From the NCBI RefSeq assembly GCF_051903065.1, contig NZ_CP178439.1: a stretch of 64,000 nt of DNA; one strand, 5' to 3'. The stretch's first letter is position 1, and every line of letters starts with the position of its first letter. The DNA is from Escherichia coli. Its GTDB lineage: Bacteria; Pseudomonadota; Gammaproteobacteria; Enterobacterales; Enterobacteriaceae. The position numbers were made by a program. Positions 9,001 through 15,000 of this stretch are shown one piece after another.

Positions 9001-12000
9001 CCATTAAATTGTTAAAGCAAAATCATCCGATAAAATATGTGTCTGAAATGTGTGGGTTTAGTAGTACATCGTACTTTGTATGCCTTTTCAGACAATACTA
9101 TGAGTGTACACCACGTAAATATCTAAAGCATTAGAGAACACCTGCCTTTACTTCCTTATTTTACCAATAATTTCAGCTAAGAGATTTTGATCTAAATGTT
9201 CGTTAATCGTTAAGCTTACTTCTGTACATGCCCTTATATAGATGTTCTGAACGGTGTTATTTCTGACAATGGACTTAAATGTCAGTAACGCCATTACACA
9301 GTTGGCCAACGCGAACAGCAGTATTGGTCGCAACAAAAAATGAAAGAAAAATCCCCCAAATGAAGGGAAAAAACGGAAGAACAGTCGAACGACAGGCACA
9401 AAAAAACCCGACTGGTAATCGGGCTTTTTCGTGTTTTCCAGTCCTGAGTTGGTGGCTCTGACTGGAGGAAGATACTCTACATCCAACATCCACAATATTA
9501 TGGCACTAGACACCAGTTGTCTAGTTTGACTTCAGATTGTCTGTCAATGGCCATTTCTTTAAATGAATTTTATGCGTGCATCTGTATAATCTTTGCGTTG
9601 GCGCTGTACAGTGTGCCTCCCTTGCTTCTAAACCCTGCGCTATCTGGGTATGAACGAATTAAAGTCCTGGCTGAACAAACAGGTGGTGCTGTGTTCAGTG
9701 CTCTGGCAGGAGGAAGGTACTCTACATCCAACAATGTGAGAGAGCCGTTGTGACAGGCGATGTATGAGCAAGCAACGGCGACTTCCTCCAGTATCAACCT
9801 GGAGAAACGGATGATTAACCTGTTAATCATCGTTCTCAGGGCTGTGGTCGCCGTTGCAAACGCGCTGATTGCAGTTCTGGAACTGATCCGTCAGTTCATC
9901 GACTGATGACTGCGGAAACGTAACTAAGGGCAGGAAGTGCACCGCTTCCTGCCCTTTAACAAAGGAGGATTTATGGATTTTATGAGCATTTTGGGGCGCT
10001 GTTTACTTCTTCCTTTCCCTGTTGCGATGTTTGTCGGTTGCCTGTTTCCAGGCATTGATGATCGTTTTACTGGAATGTTCATGAGTTTTATTGTCGGTTG
10101 TCTATCGTGGTATATCACCAAGCCAAAACCGCAAAAGGCTGAGGTCGCGTAAGCGGCCTTTTTTACGTCTCTCGTTTAATTCCTCGCCATTCTGTCCAGA
10201 AATAGTATTGCGGCTAATCAAGCCAATTCCTACGTCTTTTCGCTGTTGCACGATCTAAAAGAAAATATGGGAAAATTTCATGAAAGTATGGTACTAAAGG
10301 GTCTTTAATTCCTTTATCTTGTTCCTTCAACTGCACAGTATCTCGTAAAAACCAACAAGCCGGTTGTTTAAAAAACGCTCTTAGCGTAGGATGTTTTCCA
10401 TTTTCCAAGTGGAACCCAAGTACGATGCCCGCGAAAAAGACAGCCCTCTTATGAAGAGGGCTGTTATCTGATATAGGCTTGTTATGGTCTCACTCTTGAT
10501 TAATCAGGTGTATGTGCAACCTTGGTGCACACAATCGATTATGCAGCTTGATGATCTGAAGTGTTACCGGAAGTATCTTCGGTTCGTTTTTTGTTTGTGA
10601 TGGATTCACTTTTATCTCGCAAGGCTGAGTCTATGACGTTAAACACCTTTTCCCACCGAGAAATCCAACCGCATATAGGTTGAACACGACATTTTTCCAG
10701 GAAGAAATTTAATAAGTTAGTTTTTTTATTATCTTGCACTTTGAATGGTTCAATTACATCATCGGCATCAACAGATTTTCCTCCGATAAACCACGACGGA
10801 TGGGTTTCCATTGCGTCAGAAATGAAATCGTCAGGGAAGAGGCCTTCAATAGCAAAACCACTTCTTACAGAAATATAGTCTTTATTTGACTCAAATCTAA
10901 TTTGTTTTTTACCAAAGTAGCTTTGTAATCTGGTTCTTTCTTTGACCCCAGCTTCATCACCGTCAAAAACAGATATTACGGGGACATCTTTAGAAATAAA
11001 CTCGTAGCACCCTTTCAAGAATCCCCCAAGTTGACTGACTCCACCAAACTCATCAACTTTAGCACTCCTCAGAAAAGGCCATCTGTTCTTAAACTCATCA
11101 TCTTCAGATGTCAATTTCAATATTGATTCTATATATTGTTTGTCGGTGATACCTTCAACGAAAACTGCACTACTTGATATGTTAAAGAAATCAGAAAATC
11201 TGACCCCAAGATTTTCTCTTATGCTTGCAACTGCATTAAATCTTTTTTCATGCTTTTTATCTTTTGTAACACCGGCGTCATCTTTATATAACTCAATGAT
11301 CTTACTTGGCTCATCACTGACAAATGATAAGGAATGAGTTGTAATAAGAACATAAGCAACATCCATCAGTGATTTGAAAATGTGATTACATGACCGGCCT
11401 AATGAGGGATGCAAGAAAGACTCAGGCTCCTCAACCATCCAAATCGTTTTCTTACCTAGAGTAAGTTTTCTCTCTGAAATAGATTTAAATGAAGAAAATA
11501 AAGATAAGCATTGTAGCCCCATACCTTTACTCGATATCACATTCTCAATAGTATCTTTTATTGAAACCTCAAAGCGACCAAATAACTCATCAAGAGATGG
11601 CGGAGCTTTAATAATAAAGCTACAGTCATCTATACCGCTTAGAATCATTTCATTTGTTATCTTTTCAGATACTTCCAACAGTTTATCATGAATCACTTGA
11701 ACCGATGTTTTCATGGCTGAAGCTACTTCACTCCTAACATATGGAACTAATAGATTATGATATATATCATCAATACTTTTTGACGATGGTATATACACAC
11801 ACTCAAAACTAGAAAGTATTTTTTCTATGAACCTTCTTTCAACAGATGTATACATGGAGGAAGTTACTTCAGGTTTCCTCTTGTAACCTTTAAAGACAGT
11901 GTAAAAGTAATTGTTTTTATTAGATATTGTCAGATGTACGGTCACTTCGTTTTGAGGTGACTTTAACCTGGAGTCATCAATCATGTTAAACAGCTGCAAA

Positions 12001-15000
12001 TATCTATCTCTCAAACTTAGCTTTCTGCCTCTTGATTGAGTTGGTTTTGATTCTTGTTGTTTAGAGCTGCCATCATCAAATGAAATAGAATTACTAGGCT
12101 CTTCTTGCTCCCCTAAAACACCAAGTTCAATAATCGAGTCATCATCGTCATCATCATCGTCTTGGCTCAAATCCTCAGAGACATCATCTAGCTCACTTTC
12201 AGAAAAAGTAAATCTTACAGCAAAACTAGTTTGTCCTTGCTTAACACCATGTGGCTTATCTTTTTCATAGTCATATAAGTCAGGATTAAATTTTCCTTCA
12301 AAAAAAACCCTCATAGCTTTTAATAGGTTTGTTTTACCACTGTTGTTTTGCCCAACAATGGTTAATCCATTAAAGTTATCAGAGGATATCTCCCCTGAAA
12401 TAGACCTATACTGAGAAACTTTAAATGATACTATTTCCATTTTTCTTCCTACGATAGAATATTGCTCGGATTATCGACATTTTTTCCCAAGGCTTTAACT
12501 GTCTTTCGCTACTTGGATAAATGGCTCTTCCTCCACTGTTCTGCTTTATTTTCGCCAGAAAGCCCACCATGCATGTTGTTTGTCCTGAAGTGCTGCTTTA
12601 TCCTGAAGCAATTCAGCACTCACTGCCCCCTGAAGCACAGAAACGGCGTTTCTCGCGGCATTGCGACAGGAATCAATAACCTCTGGTTCGTTGGGCTTTC
12701 TGAGCAGGATAAATTGCGATACTTTGGACTGAGTATCAAAAGCATAGATTCGCAATTCAGGGGAGGATGTCAGGCTTACAATATTATGCAACCGCATATA
12801 ATTGGTGTAGTCCTTGCTACTTGGATCACATGATTCATAAAGATATTTCTGCATTAGCGTTTGCGATGAAGAAAGAAAATCTATATAGCGGTCAGTTTTT
12901 TTATCTATATCCCGCAGTCGCTGAGCTATTGCATCTTTTCTTATTTCGTGGCAGTGTGTTAATTTCAGTGTAATCCAGCCACCAACAATGGTGATTAATG
13001 CACCCAGCCCAATTTTAACGGCATTATCAGCCACATCTACCCACTCAGTTGCCATCTGTTACGTGTTCTTCCTGTGATGATCATGGTCGCTAGTATAATT
13101 CTCCGGCTGACTGGACATACAGCATTTTCTGTCCAAGATTAATAACCTCGAACTGCAACACAATGCCGCAGATGATGCAAAGGGGGAGCCCGCAGAATTC
13201 GGAAAAAATCGTACGCTAAGGTTTTCCGGGCATCCGTAAGGGCCGAAACTTCCCGTCTTCCAGTCTGCGGCTCTGCCGCCAGACGTAATCGCCGGTTAGG
13301 TTGATGTGCTCCCAGCCCAGCGGCGACAGGAATTGCAGCAGCTCGCCGTCCACCGGCTTGCCGGCCTCGACCAACCCCTGGGTGGCGCGTTCCAGGTACA
13401 CCGTGTTCCACAGCACGATAGCCGCCGTCACCAGGTTGAGGCCGCTGGCCCGGTAGCGCTGCTGCTCGAAGCTCCGATCCCTGATTTCCCCAAGGCGGTT
13501 GAAGAACACCGCCCTGGCCAGCGAGTTGCGCGCCTCACCTTTGTTCAGGCCGGCATGCACGCGGCGGCGCAGTTCAACACTTTGCAGCCAGTCCAGGATG
13601 AACAGCGTGCGCTCGATCCGGCCCAGCTCGCGCAGGGCCACGGCCAGTCCGTTCTGGCGCGGGTAGCTGCCGAGCTTGCGCAGCATCAGCGAGGCGGTGA
13701 CGGTGCCCTGCTTGATCGAGCTGGCCAGGCGCAGGATGTCGTCCCAGTGGGCACGCACGTGCTTGATGTTCAGGGTGCCGCCGATCAGCGGGCGCAACGT
13801 CGGGTAGGCTTGCACGCCCTGCGGCACGTACAGCTTGGTTTCGCCGAGGTCGCGGATGCGCGGCGCGAAGCGGAAGCCTAGCAGGTGCATCAGGGCAAAG
13901 ACGTGATCGGTGAAGCCGGCCGTGTCGGTGTAGTGCTCCTCGATCCGCAGGTCGGACTCGTGGTACAGCAGGCCGTCGAGCACATAGGTGGAATCGCGGA
14001 CGCCGACATTCACCACGCGGGTGCTGAACGGGGCACTGTTGCAAATAGTCGGTGGTGATAAACTTATCATCCCCTTTTGCTGATGGAGCTGCACATGAAC
14101 CCATTCAAAGGCCGGCATTTTCAGCGTGACATCATTCTGTGGGCCGTACGCTGGTACTGCAAATACGGCATCAGTTACCGTGAGCTGCAGGAGATGCTGG
14201 CTGAACGCGGAGTGAATGTCGATCACTCCACGATTTACCGCTGGGTTCAGCGTTATGCGCCTGAAATGGAAAAACGGCTGCGCTGGTACTGGCGTAACCC
14301 TTCCGATCTTTGCCCGTGGCACATGGATGAAACCTACGTGAAGGTCAATGGCCGCTGGGCGTATCTGTACCGGGCCGTCGACAGCCGGGGCCGCACTGTC
14401 GATTTTTATCTCTCCTCCCGTCGTAACAGCAAAGCTGCATACCGGTTTCTGGGTAAAATCCTCAACAACGTGAAGAAGTGGCAGATCCCGCGATTCATCA
14501 ACACGGATAAAGCGCCCGCCTATGGTCGCGCGCTTGCTCTGCTCAAACGCGAAGGCCGGTGCCCGTCTGACGTTGAACACCGACAGATTAAGTACCGGAA
14601 CAACGTGATTGAATGCGATCATGGCAAACTGAAACGGATAATCGGCGCCACGCTGGGATTTAAATCCATGAAGACGGCTTACGCCACCATCAAAGGTATT
14701 GAGGTGATGCGTGCACTACGCAAAGGCCAGGCCTCAGCATTTTATTATGGTGATCCCCTGGGCGAAATGCGCCTGGTAAGCAGAGTTTTTGAAATGTAAG
14801 GCCTTTGAATAAGACAAAAGGCTGCCTCATCGCTAACTTTGCAACAGTGCCGCGCGACGAGCAGCAGCACCAGGAGCAGAAGCACGTCGAGAAAAAGCAA
14901 CAGCAGATCGAGCAGCGCCCACGGCGGGCCGCTCGCATCGGATAAGTCGAAAAATCCGGCTAAAGTGGCCGAGCTGCACATCAGGCCGCGCGGTTTTCCT

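What the first reader, a model, noticed from the sequence alone, without database searches (positions are those of the whole stretch)
10431..13055. OLD-family ATPase-TOPRIM nuclease with an upstream membrane protein, wedged between the ramA fragment and the Tn1721 end
The 633-aa product has an ABC-type ATPase head (Walker A GQNNSGKT, Walker B, H-loop) and a C-terminal TOPRIM (FVEGITD, FDGDEAG), the architecture of P2 Old, Gabija GajA and PARIS AriAB, all anti-phage nucleases. Here it has no UvrD-like helicase partner; instead a 169-aa single-pass membrane protein sits immediately upstream in the same orientation, and the gene carries an unusual poly-Asp insertion. It lies in AT-rich DNA with its own terminator, bounded by mobile elements. 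This could be a stand-alone class 1 OLD gene or an undescribed two-gene variant.
Basis: partly seen in the sequence, partly recalled or inferred. Interest (0 to 1): 0.7.

Follow-up and report, generated by a model that had tools for sequence, protein, structure and literature searches.

The report
Stand-alone OLD nuclease beside unrelated membrane gene
The region holds an intact single-gene (Class 1) OLD-family ATPase-nuclease, very probably an anti-phage gene, next to a small membrane-protein gene that is a separate mobile cassette and not its partner, so this is an ordinary new member of a known defence family.

Summary
Both ORFs exist as described: a 633-aa OLD-like protein (10539-12440, minus strand) and a 169-aa single-pass membrane protein (12546-13055, minus strand). 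The OLD protein keeps every ATPase and Toprim catalytic residue. Its closest solved relative by sequence profile is the Class 1 Thermus scotoductus OLD.

The two-gene idea fails. A 3.5-kb IncX1-derived piece (9646-13182) carries both genes, but DNA homology breaks between them at 12536/12537:
- A 5.8-kb Klebsiella plasmid carries only the OLD cassette (91.5% identity).
- IncFII plasmids carry only the membrane-gene cassette (91% identity).

OLD relatives at 30-72% identity sit alone in lambdoid prophages, chromosomal islets and Vibrio integron cassettes. Membrane-protein relatives sit alone in three cargo slots of P2-like prophages (A-Q, S-V, G-FI) and on about 450 plasmids without an OLD gene.

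[quoted passage not shown] It lies next to an independent, unannotated membrane gene of the kind prophages carry as non-essential cargo (a "moron"). RefSeq labels that gene "peptidase M14", which looks wrong. Function is inferred, not tested. Interest is modest. The membrane-protein family is the less expected by-product.

The parts
10539..12440 (-). CDS of the 633-aa Class 1 OLD-family ATPase-Toprim nuclease (RefSeq WP_065311127.1, 'AAA family ATPase')
   Evidence: ORF. Pfam AAA_15 over residues 1-374, 5e-18. PADLOC Old 6.7e-19, plus AriA and GajA. Family profile against PDB: 6P74 TsOLD 1.9e-17, GajA 6e-13. Foldseek: GajA, Eco8 OLD and TsOLD at E ~1e-15. hhalign to P2 Old: 98.7% probability.
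12333..12356 (-). Walker A / P-loop GQNNSGKT (res 29-36; K36)
   Evidence: G30, N32, G35 and K36 are invariant in 29 homologs. The segment aligns to the TsOLD P-loop.
12018..12203 (-). Acidic, disordered, clade-specific insertion (res 80-141, includes D94-D101 poly-Asp)
   Evidence: pLDDT <50 for residues 99-136. The insertion is present only in Enterobacterales relatives at >=43% identity and absent from the 550-560-aa relatives. Its sequence and poly-D length vary between lineages.
11334..11444 (-). Walker B / D-loop (IWMVEEPESFLHP, res 333-345) through H-loop (H369)
   Evidence: W334, E337, E338, P339, E340, H344, P345 and H369 are invariant. They align to TsOLD IIEEPEMYLHP and THS, which correspond to TsOLD E276, H283 and H310 (PMC7049728).
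10761..11177 (-). Toprim nuclease domain (res ~422-560): E429, D433, D493, D495, E532
   Evidence: All five residues are invariant. E429/D433 align to TsOLD E377/D381. The DxD and downstream E match the TsOLD metal A/B ligands D431, D433 and E480 by order and spacing; that mapping is an inference.
10440..10464 (-). Intrinsic terminator downstream of the OLD gene
   Evidence: 11-bp stem with 6 GC pairs, 3-nt loop and a T-run. It travels with the OLD cassette into the small Klebsiella plasmid, where homology runs down to window 10434.
12441..12536 (-). 96-bp region upstream of the OLD gene that moves with it (candidate own promoter plus AGGAAG ribosome-binding site); the module junction lies at 12536/12537
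   Evidence: blastn: the small plasmid L026 matches window 10434-12536 only, and IncFII plasmids match 12537-13135 only. The divergence point is visible in the alignment. The promoter is read by eye (TTAAAG-17-GATAAT) and was not called by the scan.
12546..13055 (-). CDS of the 169-aa single-pass membrane protein (RefSeq WP_065311128.1, mislabelled 'peptidase M14'); an independent cassette
   Evidence: ORF. No Pfam, PADLOC, NCBIfam or PHROG match. AF2 gives pLDDT 84: a TM helix plus helical bundle. Homologs stand alone on plasmids and in P2-like prophages.
12960..13019 (-). Predicted transmembrane helix (res 13-32, VKIGLGALITIVGGWITLKL), the most conserved part of the family
   Evidence: Hydropathy 1.77. 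K14, I15, G16 and G18 are (nearly) invariant even in distant members.
13056..13135 (-). Upstream region that travels with the membrane-protein gene (presumed promoter)
   Evidence: 91% identity to IncFII plasmids extends from 12537 to 13135.
9646..13182 (.). IncX1-plasmid-derived segment embedded in the IncHI2 plasmid; carries dqlB, a small ORF, the OLD gene and the membrane gene
   Evidence: 98.7% identity over 10091-13183 and 93% over 9646-10043 to IncX1 pSA02DT10168701_37, with the same gene order.
13183..13220 (+). 38-bp terminal inverted repeat of a Tn1721-type transposon; right boundary of the segment
   Evidence: Exact match, 0 expected by chance. The IR sequence was recalled from memory. 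IncX1 homology stops at 13183.

Best explanation
Two independent single-gene cargo cassettes lie side by side in a 3.5-kb piece of IncX1 plasmid DNA that was captured in an IncHI2 resistance plasmid.

Cassette 1 (10434-12536) encodes a complete Class 1 OLD-family enzyme. It has an ABC-type ATPase head with a helical (dimerisation-type) insertion, followed by a two-metal Toprim nuclease and a short C-terminal helical region. By analogy with P2 OLD, Vibrio cholerae OLD and E. coli YbjD, it most likely acts alone as an anti-phage or anti-invader nuclease. In that model the ATPase works as the sensor or switch, and on a phage cue the Toprim site cuts nucleic acid. The cut would be either nicks in replicating DNA or cuts in tRNA anticodon stems, which stops phage replication or kills the infected cell. 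The disordered acidic insert is a clade-specific add-on and may be autoinhibitory.

Cassette 2 (12537-13135) encodes an unrelated, unannotated single-pass membrane protein. It recurs as a stand-alone non-essential cargo gene (moron) in P2-like prophage cargo slots and on plasmids. It is probably a lysogenic-conversion or exclusion factor of its own.

Shown here: gene structure, family membership, intact catalytic residues, the modular breakpoint, and independent distribution of the two genes. Inferred: anti-phage role, nuclease target, role of the insert, and function of the membrane protein.
For: Family and intact active sites:
- PADLOC Old/AriA/GajA and Pfam AAA_15.
- Profile against PDB: best hit is TsOLD 6P74, a Class 1 enzyme, at 1.9e-17.
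- Foldseek top hits are all OLD-family nucleases. hhalign to P2 Old gives 98.7% probability.
- K36, E337, H344, H369, E429, D433, D493, D495 and E532 are invariant in 29 homologs.
- AF2 model pLDDT 82.

The OLD gene is stand-alone:
- No helicase or reverse transcriptase nearby, and no retron RNA.
- 94%-identical protein alone on a 5.8-kb mobilisable plasmid.
- 72% homolog alone between N and cI of an Edwardsiella lambdoid prophage.
- 62% homolog alone between lacI-type and lysR-type genes in Serratia.
- 43% and 42% homologs alone.
- 60% homologs in the nin region of lambdoid prophages.
- 32% homolog as a Vibrio integron cassette with three different sets of neighbours.

The two genes are modular:
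- blastn breakpoint at 12536/12537 (alignment).
- 633 plasmids carry a membrane-gene homolog, but at most 188 carry the OLD gene, and the pairs checked lie on the same ~99%-identical segment.

The membrane gene is autonomous:
- It occupies the A-Q, S-V and G-FI slots of P2-like prophages. These are the positions of P2 tin/old, orf30 and fun(Z).
- None of the 15 viral loci has an OLD homolog.

Precedent for single-gene OLD defence: PMC12392090, PMC12445682 and PMC13261556.
Against: - No experiment exists for this protein or its clade. Defence is inferred from family and context.
- In this arrangement the two genes share a strand, are 105 bp apart, and have no predicted terminator between them. 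They may therefore be co-transcribed here.
- One distant membrane-family member in a Verrucomicrobiales MAG (L050) is also followed, 84 bp downstream, by an OLD-like ATPase-Toprim gene.
- Pfam does not recognise the Toprim domain.
- At least one OLD-family protein (archaeal Cran1) has a non-defence role (abstract seen).
- The YbjD anti-phage phenotype does not need its Toprim domain, so nuclease-based killing is not guaranteed.
Confidence: 0.75

Rival explanations
1. The membrane protein and the OLD nuclease form a functional two-gene system, which would be a new OLD class. The membrane protein would act as sensor, anchor or second effector, and the nuclease would be gated by it.
For: - Same strand, 105-bp gap, no terminator between the genes.
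- The pair is kept intact in about 170 IncHI2 and IncX1 plasmids.
- A second, independent adjacency exists in a Verrucomicrobiales MAG, where a membrane-family gene is followed by an OLD-like ATPase-Toprim gene.
- Transmembrane effectors are common in defence systems (PMC9122126).
Against: - The breakpoint lies exactly between the genes. OLD occurs alone at 91.5% DNA identity, and the membrane gene alone at 91%.
- Every OLD homolog context checked from 32% to 72% identity lacks the membrane gene.
- All 15 P2-like prophage copies, and nearly all plasmid and chromosomal copies, of the membrane gene lack an OLD gene.
- The plasmid co-occurrences checked are one DNA segment at >=98.7% identity, which amounts to one evolutionary event.
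- OLD/AriA/GajA-type ATPases are among the commonest defence-island genes, so a second adjacency can be chance.
Confidence: 0.08
2. The OLD protein serves the plasmid rather than defending against phage. It could be a weapon against competing plasmids or incoming DNA, or an addiction or maintenance function.
For: - In Enterobacteriaceae it is found mostly on plasmids: 171 of 180 places in E. coli complete genomes.
- In IncX1 it sits near the resolvase and partition region.
- It makes up a third of a 5.8-kb plasmid whose only other cargo is a RelE/ParE-type toxin-antitoxin pair.
- V. cholerae OLD nicks plasmid DNA in vitro.
Against: - Close relatives are prophage cargo genes at classic exclusion sites (N-cI, the nin region) and integron cassettes, not only plasmid genes.
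- No antitoxin-like partner is present.
- All characterised single-gene bacterial OLDs have anti-phage phenotypes.
Confidence: 0.1
3. The OLD gene is an inert or decaying passenger carried along with the mobile DNA.
For: - It lies in a mosaic of IS26, Tn1721 and gene fragments.
- Some plasmids have IS elements inserted in or beside it (H42, 74 H108/H122).
Against: - The ORF is full length and all catalytic residues are intact.
- It is 99-100% conserved in more than 170 plasmids of several genera.
- It has its own ribosome-binding site and terminator.
- Homologs are maintained across phyla.
Confidence: 0.05

Closest known systems
Thermus scotoductus OLD (TsOLD, PDB 6P74), Class 1 OLD nuclease
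   Same: - Best solved-structure match by sequence profile, 1.9e-17.
- Same order of elements: P-loop, helical insertion, EEPE Walker B, LHP D-loop, THS H-loop, then Toprim EGxxD ... DxD ... E.
- Single gene without a helicase partner.
   Different: - Only about 13% identity in the structural alignment.
- The window protein carries a 62-residue disordered acidic insert after the first beta-sheet.
- It also has a conserved C-terminal helical extension (res ~570-632). [quoted passage not shown]
- The position equivalent to the metal-B ligand S478 is not conserved (A/P/S/C).
Phage P2 Old (NP_046798.1), the founding Class 1 OLD
   Same: - Single-gene ATPase-Toprim carried as non-essential cargo of a mobile element.
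- hhalign gives 98.7% probability over the signature/Walker B/H-loop region through the first Toprim motif.
- A close relative of the window protein sits in a prophage exclusion slot.
   Different: - Only 25% identity over 178 residues. tblastn at 1e-5 against phage genomes does not find P2 Old.
- It is a different clade.
- The P2 Old trigger (RecBCD inhibition) and target (tRNA-Thr anticodon stem, PMC12445682) cannot be assumed.
Vibrio cholerae Vc OLD and E. coli YbjD/OldB (bacterial Class 1 OLDs with anti-phage phenotypes)
   Same: Stand-alone bacterial OLD genes in which a single gene is sufficient for an anti-phage phenotype (PMC12392090, PMC13261556).
   Different: - YbjD is only weakly related (hhalign 65%, E 6e-5).
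- The numbering of the mutated Vc OLD residues (K48, D313, D468/D470) does not fit this clade, so it is a different lineage.
- The Vc OLD phylogeny discarded proteins longer than 600 aa. The 614-671-aa acidic-insert subclade would therefore have been excluded from it.
Gabija GajA (Class 2), retron-Eco8 OLD (Class 3), PARIS AriA/AriB (Class 4)
   Same: Same ATPase-Toprim fold. They are the top Foldseek and PADLOC hits alongside Old.
   Different: There is no GajB helicase, no reverse transcriptase or ncRNA, and no split into AriA plus AriB in the window or in any homolog context examined.
P2 lysogenic-conversion cargo genes (tin/old, orf30, fun(Z)), for the 169-aa gene
   Same: Homologs of the 169-aa gene occupy exactly these three non-essential cargo slots of P2-like prophages. 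The A-Q slot is a documented anti-phage hotspot (PMC9122126).
   Different: - No sequence similarity to Tin, Orf30 or Fun(Z) (one search found none).
- No model for it in any family library.
- Its function has not been tested.

Membership tests
OLD family (ATPase-Toprim nucleases) | N-terminal ABC-type ATPase with Walker A lysine, Walker B acidic residue, D-loop and H-loop | tested here: met
   K36, E337/E338, H344 and H369 are invariant in 29 homologs and align to TsOLD K34, E276, H283 and H310. Pfam AAA_15 at 5e-18.
OLD family (ATPase-Toprim nucleases) | C-terminal Toprim domain with conserved acidic metal ligands (E, D; DxD; E) | tested here: met
   E429, D433, D493, D495 and E532 are invariant. 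E429/D433 align to TsOLD E377/D381. PADLOC GajA and ATPase-Toprim models extend to residues ~508-519. Full-length Foldseek hits to OLD nucleases. The Pfam Toprim model itself does not hit. The S478-equivalent position is not conserved.
OLD family (ATPase-Toprim nucleases) | ATP hydrolysis and metal-dependent nuclease activity | not testable with these tools
   Needs purified protein.
Class 1 OLD | Single gene with no conserved partner gene (no helicase, no retron parts, not split) | tested here: met
   OLD occurs alone on a 5.8-kb plasmid, in lambdoid prophages, in chromosomal islets and as an integron cassette, with unrelated neighbours each time. The upstream 169-aa gene separates from it at 12536/12537.
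Class 1 OLD | Typical length of about 500-600 aa (a working cut-off used in PMC12392090, not a mechanistic criterion) | tested here: inconclusive
   The protein is 633 aa. Without the 62-residue disordered insert the core is about 571 aa, and relatives lacking the insert are 550-560 aa.
Class 2 OLD / Gabija (GajA-GajB) | [quoted passage not shown] | tested here: not met
   Downstream of the OLD stop codon there is only a terminator, ORFs of up to 71 aa and dqlB. None of the homolog contexts has a helicase.
Class 3 OLD / retron I-B | Adjacent reverse transcriptase and msr/msd non-coding RNA | tested here: not met
   No reverse-transcriptase ORF. An Rfam scan of 9000-13400 finds only AgrB. The NCBIfam retron Eco8 effector model scores 29 bits against a cut-off of 250.
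Class 4 OLD / PARIS (AriA + AriB) | Separate ABC ATPase (AriA) and DUF4435/Toprim (AriB) genes | tested here: not met
   One fused 633-aa protein. The AriA model matches only residues 1-374, and there is no AriB-like ORF nearby.
Peptidase M14 (RefSeq name of the 169-aa protein) | Zn-carboxypeptidase domain (Pfam Peptidase_M14) | tested here: not met
   No Pfam hit in the query or in 36 family members. The model is all-helical: a TM helix plus a bundle. No PDB sequence match.
Known anti-phage systems (PADLOC v2) for the 169-aa protein | Match to any defence-protein model | tested here: not met
   0 PADLOC, 0 PHROG and 0 NCBIfam families.

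The most novel reading that the evidence does not exclude
In the IncX1/IncHI2 arrangement the two cassettes may have become a working pair. The single-pass membrane protein would sense or anchor at the envelope and gate the OLD nuclease, giving a membrane-coupled OLD system.

Weak support comes from possible co-transcription here and from a second adjacency of a membrane-family gene with an OLD-like gene in a Verrucomicrobiales genome.

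A less radical reading is more likely, at roughly 0.35: the 169-aa family is by itself an undescribed single-gene exclusion factor, carried in three P2-like prophage cargo slots and on hundreds of plasmids.
Probability: 0.08. Interest if true: 0.65.

Novelty: new member of a known kind. Interest (0 to 1): 0.3.

Why it matters
- Class 1 (single-gene) OLD nucleases are the least understood OLD class. Only P2 OLD, Vc OLD and YbjD have phenotypes, and their triggers and targets differ.
- This clade has no characterised member. It is widespread on IncHI2 and IncX1 resistance plasmids of E. coli, Salmonella and Klebsiella, including mcr-type IncHI2 plasmids. It is also carried by the reference strain E. 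coli ATCC 25922, so it is easy to test.
- If it is active, resistance plasmids would confer phage resistance along with antibiotic resistance. That is relevant to phage therapy and to plasmid ecology.
- The acidic-insert subclade exceeds the 600-aa length filter of the one published Class 1 phylogeny read here, so it would have been left out of that survey.
- The neighbouring 169-aa family is mislabelled "peptidase M14" in RefSeq. It is a candidate new single-gene lysogenic-conversion or exclusion factor.

Tried and rejected
1. Two-gene system. Rejected on context sampling, tblastn and HMM screens of all fetched loci and the blastn breakpoint.
2. Single-sequence search of PDB with either protein: no hit for OLD at E<=0.01, and only noise for the 169-aa protein. 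A family profile was needed.
3. Pfam, PADLOC, NCBIfam and PHROGs for the 169-aa protein and 36 relatives: nothing.
4. Fold searches of the 169-aa model. AFDB50 gave only uncharacterised proteins and weak DUF4760 look-alikes. BFVD viral structures gave nothing below E 0.01.
5. tblastn of the 169-aa protein against 50,697 deposited phage genomes: no match. The prophage copies appear only in IMG/VR and bacterial assemblies.
6. A conserved convergent partner for the 169-aa gene. The 295-aa and 293-aa neighbours in Serratia and Klebsiella are unrelated to each other.
7. Conserved promoter upstream of OLD homologs. Upstream regions are not alignable beyond near-identical copies, and the consensus scan found no promoter above shuffled expectation.
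8. Genome-collection scan with the broad alignment A3 failed for lack of a conserved stretch. It was repeated with A2.
9. Literature searches for the RefSeq accessions, 'IncX1' with 'OLD family', and 'Old_exonuclease' with plasmids found nothing on this gene.
10. Identity with Vc OLD or YbjD. Rejected on residue numbering and a weak profile match.

Full report
OBSERVATION

The two ORFs are real and sit where stated. The 633-aa ORF is at 10539-12440 (-) and the 169-aa ORF at 12546-13055 (-), separated by 105 bp. The OLD coding sequence is 35.4% GC against 47.2% for the window. A strong intrinsic terminator (11-bp stem plus T-run) lies at 10464-10440. An exact 38-bp Tn1721-type inverted repeat lies at 13183-13220 (the IR sequence was recalled from memory). 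A Klebsiella-type ramA/romA fragment lies at 7941-8702. The poly-Asp run is D94-D101.

WHERE THE DNA COMES FROM

The stretch 9800-13300 is 100% identical in at least 173 plasmids. The best matches listed are large (about 215-315 kb) plasmids of E. coli, Salmonella, Enterobacter and others, and the one examined, pTBMCR401, is IncHI2A.

It is not IncHI2 backbone. Window 10091-13183 is 98.7% identical to 37-kb IncX1 plasmids such as pSA02DT10168701_37, and 9646-10043 is 93% identical. Those plasmids have the same gene order: membrane gene, OLD, small ORF, dqlB. The finding therefore sits in a 3.5-kb IncX1-derived fragment cut on the right by the Tn1721 end.

WHAT THE 633-aa PROTEIN IS

- Pfam reports AAA_15 over residues 1-374 (5e-18) and no Toprim model.
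- PADLOC ranks Old (6.7e-19), AriA and many GajA models first. Several of these extend to residues ~445-519.
- A single-sequence PDB search finds nothing. A profile of 29 homologs hits the Class 1 Thermus scotoductus OLD (6P74) best at 1.9e-17, then GajA, then the retron-Eco8 OLD.
- The AlphaFold2 model has pLDDT 82. Its top Foldseek matches are GajA, retron-Eco8 OLD and TsOLD at E around 1e-15.
- hhalign to P2 Old gives 98.7% probability. To E. coli YbjD it gives only 65%.

In the family alignment these residues are invariant: K36, E337/E338/E340, H344, H369, E429, D433, D493, D495 and E532. [quoted passage not shown] The equivalent of the metal-B serine is not conserved. The enzyme looks catalytically competent.

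THE ACIDIC INSERT

Residues ~80-141 contain 13 Asp and 8 Glu and are disordered in the model (pLDDT <50 for 99-136). The insert occurs only in the Enterobacterales subclade (>=43% identity). The 550-560-aa relatives in other phyla lack it. Its sequence evolves fast and the poly-Asp length differs between plasmid lineages. Any role, for example as an autoinhibitory nucleic-acid mimic, is speculation.

IS THE 169-aa GENE A PARTNER?

No, on four lines of evidence.

1. Breakpoint. A 5.8-kb mobilisable Klebsiella plasmid matches only window 10434-12536 (91.5%). That is the OLD gene, 96 bp upstream of it and its terminator, and the plasmid has no membrane gene. IncFII E. coli plasmids match only 12537-13135 (91%). 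That is the membrane gene and 80 bp upstream, and they have no OLD gene. The junction is visible in the alignment.

2. OLD homologs stand alone:
   - 72% identity, between N and cI of an Edwardsiella lambdoid prophage.
   - 62%, between lacI-type and lysR-type genes in Serratia.
   - 43%, next to hicAB in Prodigiosinella.
   - 42%, in Dickeya.
   - 60%, in the nin region of lambdoid prophages.
   - 32%, as a cassette in Vibrio integron arrays with three different sets of neighbours.
   tblastn and HMM screens find no membrane-family gene in any of these OLD-homolog loci that were screened.

3. Membrane-gene homologs stand alone:
   - 89%, on IncFII plasmids.
   - 85%, on a Citrobacter IncFIC plasmid.
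   - 80%, in the A-Q slot of Serratia P2-like prophages.
   - 67%, in a Serratia chromosomal islet.
   - 56%, on Klebsiella plasmids next to HNH-, FRG- and Abi_2-type genes.
   - 47%, on an Enterobacter plasmid.
   Of 633 plasmids with a homolog, at most 188 carry the OLD gene, and those examined carry the pair on the same near-identical segment.

4. Viral contigs. In 15 IMG/VR contigs the membrane gene occupies three different cargo slots of P2-like prophages. These are A-Q (where P2 has tin and old), S-V (P2 orf30) and G-FI (P2 fun(Z)). None has an OLD homolog within 5 kb.

One counter-observation remains. A distant family member in a Verrucomicrobiales MAG is followed after 84 bp by a 465-aa OLD-like ATPase-Toprim gene. 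Given how common such ATPases are in defence islands, I treat this as probable coincidence, but it is unexplained.

WHAT THE 169-aa PROTEIN IS

It has one N-terminal transmembrane helix (residues 13-32, hydropathy 1.77) followed by a helical bundle (AF2 pLDDT 84).

It matches no Pfam, PADLOC, NCBIfam or PHROG family. The RefSeq name 'peptidase M14' has no support.

A full HMM search of 1.8 billion representatives finds only 257 relatives. Structural neighbours are uncharacterised proteins.

Its recurrent placement in lysogenic-conversion slots and beside varied defence candidates suggests an exclusion or abortive-infection role of its own. This is inference. More distant relatives in Psychrobacter sit in a conserved chromosomal context between the same two flanking genes (a murJ-like gene downstream, recognised by eye), so the wider superfamily need not be defence-related.

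MECHANISM (INFERRED)

By family, this is a single-gene OLD defence enzyme. The ABC ATPase head acts as sensor or switch, and the two-metal Toprim nuclease as effector.

Characterised Class 1 enzymes differ in trigger and target:
- P2 OLD is triggered by RecBCD inhibition and severs tRNA anticodon stems (PMC12445682).
- Vc OLD nicks DNA, blocks phage replication and needs both domains (PMC12392090).
- YbjD needs only its ATPase part (PMC13261556).

The present clade is about equally distant from all three. The target, DNA or tRNA, cannot be called from sequence.

COMPARISON AND NOVELTY

The protein meets the defining features of the OLD family and of Class 1. It fails those of Gabija, retron I-B and PARIS (see the membership table). 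It belongs to an uncharacterised clade with no dedicated model in PADLOC or NCBIfam. Its acidic-insert members exceed the 600-aa filter used in the published Class 1 phylogeny.

That makes it a new member of a known kind. The two-gene hypothesis that drove the original interest score is not supported. The unexpected by-product is the unannotated membrane-protein family carried as prophage and plasmid cargo.

VERDICT

Noticed in passing
window 12546-13055; loci L022-L024, L060-L074: The 169-aa membrane-protein family recurs as a stand-alone cargo gene in three different slots of P2-like prophages. These are A-Q (the tin/old slot), S-V (the orf30 slot) and G-FI (the fun(Z) slot). It is also on more than 600 plasmids. 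It has no family model anywhere and is labelled 'peptidase M14' in RefSeq without support. It is a candidate undescribed single-gene exclusion factor.
   Followed up: partly
L050:4995-7049 (Verrucomicrobiales MAG JARGOD010000033.1): A distant member of the membrane family is followed after 84 bp by a 465-aa OLD-like ATPase-Toprim gene (PADLOC AriAB 3.9e-22). This is a second, independent adjacency of a membrane-family gene with an OLD-like gene. Whether it is coincidence or linkage is unresolved.
   Followed up: partly
window 9399-9486 (-) and 9811-9906 (+): An AgrB-type antisense RNA (Rfam RF02891, 68.8 bits) and a DinQ-like type I toxin gene dqlB (NCBIfam NF041473, 72.8 bits) lie just downstream of the OLD cassette. 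The dqlB copy is also part of the IncX1-type segment.
   Followed up: partly
window 12135-12158 (poly-Asp codons, res 94-101): The poly-Asp tract is a GAC/GAT run whose length differs between lineages: 8 D in IncHI2 and IncX1, against DNDDDDDDDDDD in the 5.8-kb Klebsiella plasmid. The surrounding acidic insert is the fastest-evolving part of the protein.
   Followed up: partly
plasmid hits H42 (NZ_CP138781.1), H108 (NZ_JBXSFF010000002.1), H122 (NZ_JBRUTH010000003.1): In a few plasmids the OLD/membrane-gene region is interrupted by IS elements (ISKpn26, IS1A, ISEc52). This could mean occasional counter-selection of the locus. The insertion points were not mapped.
   Followed up: no
hit H123, NZ_CP117236.1 (24,185-bp plasmid of E. 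coli ATCC 25922): The common reference strain ATCC 25922 carries the same gene pair at 99.2% identity on a small plasmid. It is a convenient source for experiments.
   Followed up: no
L013/L014:4784-6709 (Edwardsiella piscicida prophage): The 72%-identical OLD homolog lies between the N antiterminator gene and the cI-type repressor of a lambdoid prophage. By my recollection this is the position of rexAB in lambda, a classic exclusion-gene site.
   Followed up: partly
L102-L104 (Vibrio contigs): A 32%-identical OLD homolog is surrounded by DUF645, acetyltransferase and ccdAB genes, with different neighbours in each of three contigs. This looks like a single-gene cassette in the Vibrio superintegron.
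   Followed up: no
L036-L049, L055 (Psychrobacter genomes): Distant relatives sharing the N-terminal motif W-I-E-V-x-D-S-A-V-K-I-G-L-G-A lie in a conserved chromosomal position between an ampD-like gene and murJ (both recognised by eye from their N-termini). The wider superfamily may have a housekeeping envelope role.
   Followed up: no
window 7941-8702 and 8889-9134: There is a Klebsiella-type ramA gene with a truncated romA, and the C-terminal HTH fragment of an AraC/YdeO-like regulator. These are chromosomal debris in the plasmid mosaic to the left of the IncX1-derived piece.
   Followed up: no
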